A program made the position numbers and the translations under genes. This document shows, piece after piece, positions 56,371 through 57,496 of a stretch of 64,000 nt of DNA. The number at the start of each line of letters is the position of its first letter. The stretch's first letter is position 1. The notes under the pieces were generated by a model. It had not been told where the DNA came from. It searched no databases and was given only the letters and a program-made list of their open reading frames with translations. This DNA comes from Escherichia coli (GTDB lineage Bacteria > Pseudomonadota > Gammaproteobacteria > Enterobacterales > Enterobacteriaceae), in NCBI RefSeq assembly GCF_003334385.1, contig NZ_QOWN01000014.1. One strand, given 5' to 3'.

Positions 56371-56732
56371 ATTTTTCCCTAAATAGTCAGTATGTTGAAA
56401 CTTTTTATTGTGAGATTTGTTGCAAAAACCATCTGACCATAACGCCAGCTGCCGGGGAAAGGAAGGATTATCTGCGGTTTTTGTGATGAAAAGCAGGATG
56501 ATTATATTTAACCCAGTAAATACGTTCCTGTCTTTTTTTGTATAAAAAATGTTTATTACTCGATGTAAGGATACATTAATTTTACGTTTATTATGATGAA
56601 TCCTCTGCAAATGAGCGAAATTTGAAAGAACATTTATCTGCTGTACGATTTAATGAACTTAATGATACAGCATTACAAAAACAATCGAAGTTTATAAAGA
56701 TGATTCCTGATTGACCAGAACCCTATCCTACA

Positions 56733-57158
56733 ATGGTGACTAATTTTATTACTCCCGATGGAGATGATGATATGAATATATCATATGTGAATAGCAACAA
56801 AACGACATCTTTACCTGTTGAGCTAGATGCACTAAATAATAAAGATACCTCTTATGCCAAAGATTTTTCTTATGCTAAAGATTTCTTTTTATACATAGAA
56901 ACACAGTTAAAAATTGCAAAAGATTTTTGTAGACCTGGAGAAGAAGTATCAAGTTCTATTGCAAGTAAAGTTTTTCACGCATTTATTGATTTAGTTAACA
57001 AAATCAGGGGTAAGAAAGACTTTATGTATATTTGCACGCTTTGCTGTTTTGCCGAGGAGGTTAAAGGTGATTATTCTCATTACAGGACCTTTTTATTTGA
57101 TATTGGTAATCAATATAAGGTTAAACTTACACAAAGCGGAAAAAATAGCTCTCTTTAA
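56733..57158 (+). CDS. Hypothetical AT-rich ORF in the aphA-tyrB spacer (position corresponds to the K-12 yjbS locus; true start uncertain)
   Basis: 141-aa ORF MVTNFITPDGDDDMNISYVNSNK… with an internal repeat (YAKDFSYAKDF); low GC; no family recognised. Confidence 0.35.
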   Translation: MVTNFITPDGDDDMNISYVNSNKTTSLPVELDALNNKDTSYAKDFSYAKDFFLYIETQLKIAKDFCRPGEEVSSSIASKVFHAFIDLVNKIRGKKDFMYICTLCCFAEEVKGDYSHYRTFLFDIGNQYKVKLTQSGKNSSL

Positions 57159-57496
57159 CATTAGAATTTAACGATACTATAATTGAATCTCAGAAAGTCA
57201 CAGGTAATAAGGCAAAGCATATTCTTGAGGATATAGAAATATTCTATCGTAACAAACCCGATACTTATTATTAAATTTAATAATGGTTAGATGTGCAGAA
57301 ATTATTACTCCACACGAAAAAATAGGGAAAGGAATTCCAGATAATTGGGATAAACTTAACAATAAAAGAACTGACAACGTTTTATTATCTCTCACGTAGA
57401 ACAACGGCATCAAAAAAATCATCTACAAAGAAATAGTGAAAGCGACGACAGTTTAATTTCACTGCAGGCTGGGTAACTCCAGCCTGCTTTCCTGCA

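What the first reader, a model, noticed from the sequence alone, without database searches (positions are those of the whole stretch)
56371..57496. AT-rich 1.1-kb spacer between aphA and tyrB with an unassigned repeat-containing ORF
The interval is much more AT-rich than the surrounding core genes. It contains a 141-aa plus-strand ORF (56733..57158) with an internal duplicated motif (YAKDFSYAKDF) and Cys-rich C-terminal part, plus a 74-aa minus-strand ORF (57198..57422). Neither resembles a family I recognise. This looks like a small horizontally acquired or H-NS-silenced islet, with the true coding start, if any, uncertain.
Basis: seen in the sequence. Interest (0 to 1): 0.4.

Follow-up and report, generated by a model that had tools for sequence, protein, structure and literature searches.

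The report
Frameshifted yjbS orphan gene islet
The AT-rich spacer between aphA and tyrB is the known E. coli yjbS locus, a 986-bp islet carrying one E. coli-only orphan gene that this strain holds as a frameshift-truncated copy, so it is an ordinary, already catalogued feature.

Summary

The plus-strand ORF is yjbS (K-12 b4621), so it has a name but no assigned function. Its likely start is ATG 56772, behind an invariant GGAG, not 56733.

Intact alleles in other strains encode a 160-167 aa soluble protein. The window allele has lost one base at an A-run (57140-57146). It stops after 128 aa, and the last 41 codons lie out of frame at 57149-57274. K-12's 67-aa YjbS is a doubly frameshifted remnant of the same gene.

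The 74-aa minus-strand ORF is open in only 3 of 19 alleles and is a chance ORF.

A search of 1.84 billion representative proteins found only E. coli/Shigella copies. Selection on the protein is weak (omega 0.43, against 0.04-0.05 in aphA and tyrB). At least 2135 of 4379 carrier genomes hold disrupted alleles.

The islet (56510-57495) sits in 4379 of 5426 complete genomes. 1046 others carry the 13.7-kb KguS/KguR alpha-ketoglutarate island at the same site, so 5425 of 5426 genomes carry one occupant or the other.

Published work lists the K-12 tyrB/yjbS region as an H-NS-bound "promoter island".

Verdict: a known, decaying, H-NS-silenced orphan gene. Interest is low.

The parts
56371..56509 (.). 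aphA upstream (promoter/leader) DNA common to all E. coli; not part of the variable islet
   Evidence: Homology to ST131 (phylogroup B2, which lacks yjbS) runs from aphA up to 56509 and then stops. Diversity is low, pi 0.0165.
56510..57495 (.). yjbS islet: 986 bp, GC 0.314, replaced as a block by the 13.7-kb KguS/KguR island in B2 strains
   Evidence: Break points come from blastn against ST131. The islet is in 4379 of 5426 genomes and kguR in 1046 of 5426, which sums to 5425.
56733..56771 (+).
   Evidence: There is no Shine-Dalgarno sequence before 56733. Variation among 20 alleles is mostly non-synonymous (T/I, P/R/L, D/E, D/Y). PGAP starts the CDS at MNISY.
56760..56763 (+). Shine-Dalgarno GGAG, 8 nt upstream of the ATG at 56772
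   Evidence: Read directly from the sequence. Invariant in all 20 aligned alleles.
56772..57158 (+). yjbS, truncated allele: 128 codons plus stop
   Evidence: This is the same start as K-12 yjbS and as PGAP's call in a near-identical strain, protein WP_001339137.1. The product is 91% identical to the intact 167-aa P0004 over the stretch where they align.
56841..56884 (+). 18-nt in-frame tandem duplication (KD(T/I)SYA / KDFSYA), polymorphic among strains
   Evidence: Found by Tandem Repeats Finder and the repeat finder family D3. Presence or absence in other alleles is shown.
57140..57146 (+). Frameshift site: the A-run is A6 followed by T, where intact alleles have A7 or A6-T-G
   Evidence: From the alignment of 20 alleles. 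The same 1-nt loss occurs in K-12. The window-type 41-mer is present in 157 genomes.
57149..57274 (+). Displaced remnant of the last 41 codons plus stop (LSLTLEFNDTIIESQKVTGNKAKHILEDIEIFYRNKPDTYY*), now out of frame
   Evidence: From the translation and the alignment to intact proteins, where it is 90% identical.
56995..57312 (.). Approximate counterpart of the published K-12 'promoter island' tyrB/yjbS (4266514, 318 bp); it mostly covers decayed yjbS coding sequence
   Evidence: Table 1 of PMC3661553. I mapped it by distance from the tyrB stop in L001, using the U00096.2 tyrB coordinates from memory, so the mapping is inferred. The best promoter-like site lies inside it at 57155-57183 and matches 11 of 12 positions.
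57198..57422 (-). 74-aa chance ORF, not a gene
   Evidence: It is open in only 3 of 19 alleles and broken by stops or indels elsewhere. It lies in the most variable segment, pi 0.077. It has no family match.
57464..57487 (.). GC-rich hairpin directly after the tyrB stop codon; probable tyrB terminator, possibly also ending yjbS transcripts
   Evidence: Folding energy is -19.4 kcal/mol (z -3.7) on the minus strand and -19.2 kcal/mol (z -5.2) on the plus strand. ST131 has a different hairpin at the same place. The terminator function is inferred.

Best explanation
This is the yjbS locus of E. coli. A 986-bp AT-rich islet (56510-57495) lies between the core genes aphA and tyrB and carries a single gene found only in E. 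coli and Shigella.

In its intact form the gene encodes a soluble protein of 160-167 aa (about 19 kDa) with no detectable relatives. The predicted layout, at low confidence, is a disordered N-terminus, a helical hairpin, a five-stranded beta-meander and a C-terminal helix.

In the strain of this window the gene has lost one base at an A-run (57140-57146). Translation from ATG 56772 therefore ends after 128 aa. The product lacks the last two strands and the helix, so it is most likely a non-functional remnant (inferred).

The same lesion underlies the K-12 allele. K-12 then gained a second, upstream frameshift, which gives the annotated 67-aa YjbS.

In K-12 the DNA is bound by H-NS and is transcriptionally nearly silent (published). 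The gene is thus kept off under laboratory conditions, is under only weak purifying selection, and is being lost repeatedly by independent lesions.

Shown here:
- the identity of the locus;
- the frameshift and the other alleles;
- the gene's distribution;
- the lack of homologues;
- the weak selection.

Taken from papers: H-NS binding and silence in K-12.

Inferred: loss of function of the 128-aa product, silencing in this particular strain, and the ancestral state.
For: Identity:
- megablast places the interval in 4379 of 5426 complete E. coli genomes, always between aphA and tyrB. In K-12-like strains it is annotated yjbS.

Full-length form:
- Proteins of 161-167 aa ending ...YRNKPDTYY exist.
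- 14 of 20 sampled alleles have an open 160-167 codon frame.

Frameshift:
- The C-terminal 41 codons are present in the window but in another frame.
- The alignment shows the 1-nt loss at the A-run, shared with K-12.

Census by allele-specific 41-mers (genomes of 5426):
- K-12 deltaG lesion: 1520.
- K-12-type A6: 1526.
- Window-type: 157.
- O157 10-nt deletion: 309.
- Double deletion: 143.

Evidence that it codes for protein:
- The GGAG is invariant.
- Omega is 0.43 in frame, against 0.58-1.22 in the other five frames. Variable sites by codon position are 18/26/35.
- One nonsense substitution was seen among 87 substitution events, against 4.5 expected, and it lies in the already frameshifted window allele. 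P(0) is 0.009. Synonymous changes are in excess, 29 against 21 +/- 3.8, P=0.028.

Orphan status:
- Only 28 hits among 1.84e9 representatives, all fragments of this gene.
- All named cluster members are E. coli, Shigella or Escherichia sp..
- There are no phage hits, and the plasmid hits are only mislabelled chromosomes or K-12-like DNA.

Silencing:
- PMC3661553 lists tyrB/yjbS among 78 H-NS-bound promoter islands.

Structure:
- Two AlphaFold2 models agree on the topology. Residues 100-160 reach pLDDT 69-89.
Against: - Constraint on the protein is weak. Omega (0.43) is about ten times that of aphA (0.05) and tyrB (0.04).
- ORF diversity (pi 0.050) falls between the upstream (0.037) and downstream (0.077) non-coding parts of the islet.
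- About half of the carrier genomes have a disrupted allele.
- I found no direct evidence that any allele is transcribed or translated.
- The simple sigma-70 scan gave no excess of promoter-like sites: 7 found against 5.0 +/- 2.6 expected.
- H-NS occupancy was measured in K-12, not in this strain.
- Both structural models are of low confidence overall (pLDDT 59-61).
Confidence: 0.85

Rival explanations
1. The interval is functionally non-coding. It would be an AT-rich H-NS scaffold or 'promoter island' and a spacer holding the aphA promoter and tyrB terminator. On this view the long ORF is not translated into a useful protein in any strain.
For: - Omega is 0.43, and ORF diversity is no lower than that of the neighbouring non-coding DNA.
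- At least 2135 of 4379 carriers are disrupted.
- The gene has no homologue anywhere.
- The K-12 region was published as transcriptionally defective (PMC3661553).
- The whole islet is absent from 1046 genomes.
Against: - A 167-codon open frame in 31% GC DNA is kept open in 14 of 20 diverged alleles, while the other frames carry 11-21 stops.
- Nonsense substitutions are depleted (P=0.009) and synonymous changes are in excess (P=0.028).
- The Shine-Dalgarno sequence is invariant and correctly spaced.
- All disruptions are indels confined to particular clades.
Confidence: 0.1
2. The 128-aa product of the window allele is itself a functional, shortened variant rather than a pseudogene product.
For: - PGAP annotates it as an ordinary CDS, WP_001339137.1.
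- The allele is fixed in 157 genomes.
- Related 122-126 aa versions exist in other strains.
Against: - The truncation removes the best-predicted part of the fold: strands 4-5 and the C-terminal helix, with pLDDT up to 89.
- The K-12 branch of the same lineage went on to a second frameshift, leaving 67 aa. This is what is expected once function is lost.
- The G-to-T change next to the A-run would be a nonsense codon in the ancestral frame.
Confidence: 0.08
3. YjbS is a small accessory protein of a conflict or virulence system. It could be an orphan immunity protein of a polymorphic toxin, or a type III secretion substrate, and it would be lost wherever its partner is absent.
For: These are weak leads only:
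- SipA is the only PDB sequence hit, at E 0.58.
- Foldseek against AFDB50 returns mostly uncharacterised E. coli, Shigella and Salmonella proteins at E 3e-5 to 1e-3.
- The N-terminal 16 residues are rich in Ser, Thr and Asn and lack acidic residues (read from the sequence).
Against: - All scores are below significance and come from models with pLDDT about 60.
- The EspG hit was not reproduced by Foldseek.
- PADLOC and NCBIfam give nothing.
- No toxin, secretion or partner gene lies in the islet.
- The N-terminal composition is also what AT-rich coding produces.
- O157:H7, which has a type III secretion system, carries a disrupted allele.
Confidence: 0.05
4. The A-run at 57140-57146 is a contingency (phase-variable) tract that switches yjbS on and off.
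For: Three different lesions overlap this run: A7 to A6, a 10-nt deletion in O157, and an extra 1-nt deletion in the L024 type.
Against: - The run is only 6-7 A long.
- Each lesion is fixed in a large clade (1526, 309, 157 and 143 genomes) with 100% identical 41-mers, rather than varying within clades.
- The O157 lesion is a deletion, not a slippage event.
Confidence: 0.02

Closest known systems
yjbS (b4621) of E. coli K-12, 'protein YjbS', 67 aa
   Same: It occupies the same locus between aphA and tyrB, with the same start codon and Shine-Dalgarno sequence. It is identical over the first 47 residues apart from the 6-aa duplication and one Thr/Ile difference at residue 26. It shares the A-run 1-nt loss.
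   Different: K-12 has an extra upstream 1-nt deletion (TTTTTGTAGA to TTTTTTAGA) that ends the protein at 67 aa, and it lacks the 18-nt duplication. The window allele reads on to 128 aa. Neither is the intact 160-167 aa form found in about half of the carrier strains.
H-NS-bound 'promoter islands' of E. coli K-12 (Panyukov & Ozoline 2013, PMC3661553)
   Same: The tyrB/yjbS interval is one of the 78 listed islands. It is AT-rich, reported as H-NS-bound, linked to predicted foreign DNA and transcriptionally poor.
   Different: By my mapping, the listed 318-bp 'intergenic' island corresponds mainly to the decayed C-terminal two thirds of the ancestral yjbS coding sequence, not to true intergenic DNA (inferred). 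The simple promoter scan here showed no excess of sites.
KguS/KguR alpha-ketoglutarate utilisation island (c5032-c5041) of uropathogenic E. coli (Cai et al. 2013, PMC3694859)
   Same: It occupies exactly the same chromosomal site between aphA and tyrB.
   Different: It is 13.7 kb with GC 0.49 and ten genes of known function, and it is at least 99% identical in 1044 genomes. It replaces the yjbS islet rather than being inserted next to it. There is no residual similarity, and 4379 + 1046 = 5425 of 5426 genomes carry one or the other.
Xenogeneically silenced, taxonomically restricted orphan genes of enterobacteria
   Same: It has low GC, lacks homologues, is bound by H-NS, has a high dN/dS and is lost repeatedly.
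   Different: No mobility genes, tRNA or repeats mark an insertion event, and no donor was found. De novo origin or very old acquisition therefore cannot be separated.

Membership tests
yjbS orthologue (E. coli K-12 b4621) | Located between aphA and tyrB, divergent from aphA | tested here: met
   Annotated regions of K-12 BW25113 and of a near-identical strain show the same gene order.
yjbS orthologue (E. coli K-12 b4621) | Sequence identity to K-12 YjbS from the same start codon | tested here: met
   The protein alignment is identical up to residue 47 of K-12, except for the 6-aa duplication and one Thr/Ile difference at residue 26. Interval DNA identity is 96.1%.
Functional protein-coding gene | Reading frame kept open across diverged lineages | tested here: inconclusive
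   The frame is open at 160-167 codons in 14 of 20 sampled alleles. Yet at least 2135 of 4379 carrier genomes hold one of four frame-breaking lesions, including this window.
Functional protein-coding gene | Purifying selection (dN/dS below 1, specific to the frame) | tested here: met
   Met, but weakly. Omega is 0.43 in frame against 0.58-1.22 in other frames. Nonsense depletion has P=0.009 and synonymous excess P=0.028. The neighbouring genes have omega 0.04-0.05.
Functional protein-coding gene | Ribosome-binding site at the right distance | tested here: met
   GGAG at 56760-56763 lies 8 nt before the ATG at 56772 and is invariant in 20 alleles.
Functional protein-coding gene | Evidence of transcription and translation | not testable with these tools
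   No expression data were available. None of the six papers I read that mention yjbS reports its translation.
H-NS-silenced 'promoter island' / xenogeneic DNA | AT content well above the genome average | tested here: met
   Islet GC is 0.314, against about 0.50-0.57 in the flanks.
H-NS-silenced 'promoter island' / xenogeneic DNA | H-NS occupancy in vivo | not testable with these tools
   Reported for K-12 from the data of Kahramanoglou et al. and Oshima et al., as cited in PMC3661553. It was not measured for this strain.
H-NS-silenced 'promoter island' / xenogeneic DNA | Abnormally high density of promoter-like sites | tested here: inconclusive
   The simple sigma-70 scan found 7 sites against 5.0 +/- 2.6 in shuffles. 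This is a different algorithm from the one used in the paper.
Mobile genomic island | Integrase, tRNA target or flanking direct repeats | tested here: not met
   The ORF list, the Rfam scan and the repeat and junction comparisons show no integrase gene, tRNA or flanking repeats. The only 10-nt repeat near a border (56505 and 57544) has its second copy inside tyrB.
Mobile genomic island | Variable presence at a fixed site with atypical composition | tested here: met
   4379 genomes carry the islet and 1046 carry the KguS/KguR island at the same break points.
CdiI-type immunity protein or type III effector (EspG, SipA) | Significant sequence or fold similarity to a solved member | tested here: not met
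Phase-variable contingency locus | Long homopolymer with length variation among close relatives | tested here: not met
   The run is A6-A7, and each variant is fixed in large clades with identical 41-mers.

The most novel reading that the evidence does not exclude
On this reading, full-length YjbS (160-167 aa) is a genuine, recently arisen or extremely fast-evolving protein restricted to E. coli. It would belong to a hidden structural family of uncharacterised enterobacterial proteins, the ones Foldseek pulled from AFDB50 at E 3e-5 to 1e-3. It would act in some niche-specific interaction such as immunity or secretion.

K-12, the reference for all annotation and for the 'essential by TraDIS' call, would then hold only a dead remnant of it.
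Probability: 0.12. Interest if true: 0.4.

Novelty: already known. Interest (0 to 1): 0.2.

Why it matters
The finding matters mainly for annotation and for reading genome-wide screens. There are three points.

1. The reference protein 'YjbS' (67 aa) is a doubly frameshifted remnant. As a result, NCBI's pipeline labels intact 167-codon genes in other strains as 'frameshifted' and splits them in two. An example is L003, annotated as 1902-2124 plus 2154-2405.

2. yjbS has been listed as essential by TraDIS and carried forward as an essential gene in a recoding study (PMC5821084, PMC13287592). Yet the whole islet is missing from 1046 of 5426 genomes, and the gene is broken in at least 2135 more. 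The low insertion count is therefore better explained by H-NS protecting the DNA from transposition (inference; the mechanism is cited in PMC6785131).

3. The aphA-tyrB junction is a two-state site. It holds either the orphan islet or the uropathogen-associated KguS/KguR island. The island's "insertion" was in fact a replacement.

None of this changes biological understanding much.

Tried and rejected
- **Family searches.** Pfam, NCBIfam, PHROGs and PADLOC gave no family for either ORF. Rfam found nothing in the spacer; the only match was a sub-threshold REP-like hit at 58886-58922, outside it.
- **Exhaustive HMMER search.** A profile search of 1.84e9 representative proteins returned only fragments of the same gene.
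- **Species-representative genomes.** The scan's one hit, in a 'Flavobacterium paronense' assembly, is a K-12-like E. coli contaminant contig. The GTDB E. coli representative is a B2 strain with the KguS/KguR island (H122), which explains why E. coli itself was not hit. Absence from other Escherichia species rests on two exact peptide patterns, so it is not firm.
- **Structure prediction and fold searches.**
  - Two AlphaFold2 runs reached only pLDDT 59-61.
  - The AFDB50 hits to uncharacterised enterobacterial proteins could not be followed up, because their sequences cannot be fetched by accession.
  - hhalign against yjcF, the only other AT-rich ORF in the window, was negative.
- **Mobile source.** tblastn against phages found nothing. 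The plasmid hits were only mislabelled chromosomes or K-12-like DNA.
- **kguR'-yjbS fusion protein (P0091).** It comes from a polished metagenome contig that interleaves pieces of both haplotypes. I rejected it as an assembly chimera.
- **Other conserved small ORFs in the islet.** Only 25-30 codon frames are widely open, which is what chance would give.
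Full report
**1. The observation**

The interval 56371-57496 is exactly the spacer between the start of aphA and the stop of tyrB. aphA lies on the minus strand and its ATG ends at 56370. tyrB also lies on the minus strand and its stop codon begins at 57497.

GC in 200-nt windows falls to 0.27-0.33 inside the interval, against 0.50-0.57 outside it.

The 141-aa plus-strand ORF (56733-57158) and the 74-aa minus-strand ORF (57198-57422) are both present. The YAKDFSYAKDF motif is an 18-nt tandem duplication at 56841-56884. Only 'Cys-rich' is overstated, since the intact protein has 4 Cys.

**2. Identity of the locus**

megablast against 5426 complete E. coli genomes finds the interval in 4379 of them. 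It is always chromosomal and always lies between aphA and tyrB. In K-12-like strains it carries the annotation 'yjbS: protein YjbS'.

A near-identical strain is annotated with a 128-aa hypothetical protein starting at MNISY, which corresponds to window 56772. This ATG sits 8 nt after a GGAG that is invariant in 20 aligned alleles. I take 56772 as the start.

**3. The window allele is truncated**

The protein search returned 161-167 aa versions ending ...KHILEDIEKFYRNKPDTYY. In the window these last 41 codons are present at 57149-57274, but in another frame.

The nucleotide alignment shows GGAAAAAATAG in the window. Intact alleles have GGAAAAAAAGAG or GGAAAAAATGAG at this position, so the window has lost one base at an A-run.

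K-12 shares this loss. It also has a second, upstream 1-nt deletion that ends its protein at 67 aa. O157:H7 has an independent 10-nt deletion over the same run. A fourth type has two 1-nt deletions there.

**4. Allele census**

| Lesion (allele-specific 41-mer) | Genomes of 5426 |
|---|---|
| K-12 deltaG | 1520 |
| K-12-type A6 | 1526 |
| Window-type | 157 |
| O157 10-nt deletion | 309 |
| Double deletion | 143 |

The A6, window, O157 and double-deletion classes add up to at least 2135 disrupted carriers out of 4379. In my sample, all 14 alleles without these lesions had an open frame of 160-167 codons.

Several of those intact genes are labelled 'frameshifted' by PGAP and split into a pseudogene plus an in-frame 83-aa ORF. 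I infer this happens because the reference protein is K-12's remnant.

**5. Is it a real gene?**

Evidence that it is:
- In 31% GC DNA the frame is open for 167 codons, while the other five frames carry 11-21 stops.
- Among 14 intact alleles omega is 0.43. The shifted and antisense frames give 0.58-1.22.
- Variable sites by codon position are 18, 26 and 35.
- Of 87 substitution events, only one would be nonsense in the ancestral frame. It lies next to the frameshift in the window allele. Mutation-type-matched simulation expects 4.5, with P(0)=0.009.
- Synonymous changes number 29, against 21 +/- 3.8 expected (P=0.028).

Evidence that constraint is weak:
- aphA and tyrB have omega 0.05 and 0.04.
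- ORF diversity (pi 0.050) lies between the upstream (0.037) and downstream (0.077) non-coding parts of the islet.

The picture is of a genuine but weakly constrained, dispensable gene.

**6. The minus-strand ORF**

This ORF is open only in the window, its near-identical twin L002 and one other allele. Elsewhere it is broken by stops and indels. It is a chance ORF.

**7. Relatives and fold**

- Pfam, NCBIfam, PHROGs, PADLOC and PDB sequences give nothing.
- A profile of intact alleles searched against 1.84 billion representative proteins returned 28 hits. All are fragments or variants of this gene.
- Named cluster members are E. coli, Shigella or Escherichia sp..
- There are no phage hits. The plasmid hits are mislabelled chromosomes or K-12-like DNA.
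- The protein is soluble, with a maximum hydropathy of 0.73, a mass of 19.4 kDa and a pI of 7.6.
- Two AlphaFold2 models (pLDDT 59 and 61) agree on the layout: a disordered N-terminus, two long helices, a five-stranded meander and a C-terminal helix. Residues 100-160 reach pLDDT 69-89.
- Truncation at residue 126 removes the last two strands and the helix.
- PDB fold searches are not significant and do not agree with each other.
- Foldseek against AFDB50 lists a run of uncharacterised E. coli, Shigella and Salmonella proteins at E 3e-5 to 1e-3, with poor global superposition. I could not follow this up and leave it unexplained.

**8. The islet and its alternative occupant**

Genomes lacking the islet, such as ST131, carry a 13.7-kb block between aphA and tyrB. 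It contains a sensor kinase, a sigma-54 regulator, an oxidoreductase, a DASS symporter, sucCD, lpdA, odhB and a 2-oxoglutarate dehydrogenase E1 gene. This is the KguS/KguR alpha-ketoglutarate island of uropathogenic strains (PMC3694859).

Homology between the two haplotypes stops at window 56509 and resumes at 57496, with no residual similarity in between. The kguR probe hits 1046 genomes. Together with 4379 islet carriers that makes 5425 of 5426.

The KguS/KguR island is at least 99% identical in 1044 genomes. The yjbS islet, by contrast, has pi of about 5%, and its divergence correlates with that of the flanks (rho 0.44). I infer that the islet is old within E. coli and that the KguS/KguR island replaced it in one clade.

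Neither junction shows direct repeats, an integrase or a tRNA. Each haplotype has its own hairpin just after the tyrB stop.

**9. Silencing and literature**

- Panyukov and Ozoline list tyrB/yjbS (4266514, 318 bp) among 78 'promoter islands'. These bind RNA polymerase and H-NS but yield almost no transcripts, and they are associated with predicted foreign DNA.
- By distance from tyrB, this island maps to about window 56995-57312. That is mostly the decayed C-terminal coding sequence of yjbS. The mapping is inferred and uses U00096.2 tyrB coordinates from memory.
- yjbS appears in the TraDIS list of genes with few insertions, alongside other AT-rich orphan genes. A recoding paper counts it among essential genes.
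- Given its natural absence and disruption, protection from transposition by H-NS is the more likely cause. That mechanism is discussed in PMC6785131 with reference to Kimura et al. 2016.
- IS1 insertions at nucleotide 193 of 204 of yjbS arose in evolved K-12 clones.

**10. Verdict**

The finding is a real feature, but a known one. It is the yjbS orphan-gene islet, present here as a frameshift-truncated allele in H-NS-type AT-rich DNA.

The ORF boundaries, the completeness of the ORF and the minus-strand ORF were misjudged. The protein's biochemical function remains unassigned.

Noticed in passing
L003 1902-2405 (also L018, L019, L020, L021, L022): PGAP marks intact 167-codon yjbS genes as 'frameshifted' or 'incomplete' pseudogenes. 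It often adds an in-frame 83-aa 'hypothetical protein' that is simply the C-terminal half. The likely cause is that the reference protein is K-12's truncated 67-aa YjbS.
   Followed up: yes
K-12 yjbS (L001 1902-2105); literature: yjbS is listed as having few TraDIS insertions, and so as 'essential', in K-12 (PMC5821084), and it is treated as essential in a recoding study (PMC13287592). Yet the islet is absent from 1046 of 5426 genomes and the gene is broken in at least 2135. The call is probably an H-NS occlusion artefact.
   Followed up: partly
L007 (NZ_JAUFQN010000013.1, 'Flavobacterium paronense' CECT 8460): This 9.5-kb contig carries the K-12-type yjbS allele, with flanks at about 50-59% GC. 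It looks like E. coli K-12 contamination in a long-read assembly with indel errors.
   Followed up: partly
NZ_CP069917.1 (17-kb 'Klebsiella oxytoca plasmid'), H131: This record contains a K-12-type yjbS annotated as 'protein YjbS'. It is probably E. coli chromosomal DNA mis-assigned as a plasmid. Several multi-megabase 'plasmid' records in PLSDB (H125-H127, 4.8-4.9 Mb) are plainly chromosomes.
   Followed up: no
L008 5573-12937 (ENA metagenome contig_1024_polypolish): This contig interleaves fragments of the KguS/KguR island and of the yjbS islet, which gives a kguR'-yjbS fusion ORF (P0091). It is most likely a consensus chimera of two co-existing strains.
   Followed up: partly
window 58733-58942 (tyrB-alr spacer); L006 2489-4047; L012 4501-5504: A second variable site lies next door. 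ST131 and the strain of L012 carry pnuC plus an AAA-family ATPase gene between alr and tyrB, while the window has only a short spacer. That spacer holds a sub-threshold REP-like match to Rfam naRNA4 at 58886-58922 (32.5 bits against a gathering score of 59.5).
   Followed up: no
window 42710-44002 (+): This is the only other ORF in the window with GC below 0.42. It is 430 aa with GC 0.33 and has pentapeptide repeats (Pfam PF13599 and PF00805). It is presumably yjcF, which neighbours another published promoter island (yjcF/actP). hhalign shows no relation to YjbS.
   Followed up: partly
aphA-tyrB spacer in other genomes (H1/H41, H44, H58, H69, H40/L004): The spacer is a frequent landing site for insertion sequences (IS1, IS3, ISVsa5, IS150). 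In strain SL124 an IS1B has deleted the 5' part of aphA and most of the islet.
   Followed up: no
AF2 model mccab3b77ece0 against AFDB50: After the self-hits, the Foldseek list is dominated by uncharacterised E. coli, Shigella and Salmonella proteins of 135-531 aa. They have 10-16% identity and E 3e-5 to 1e-3. This could be a hidden family, or a composition and low-confidence artefact.
   Followed up: partly
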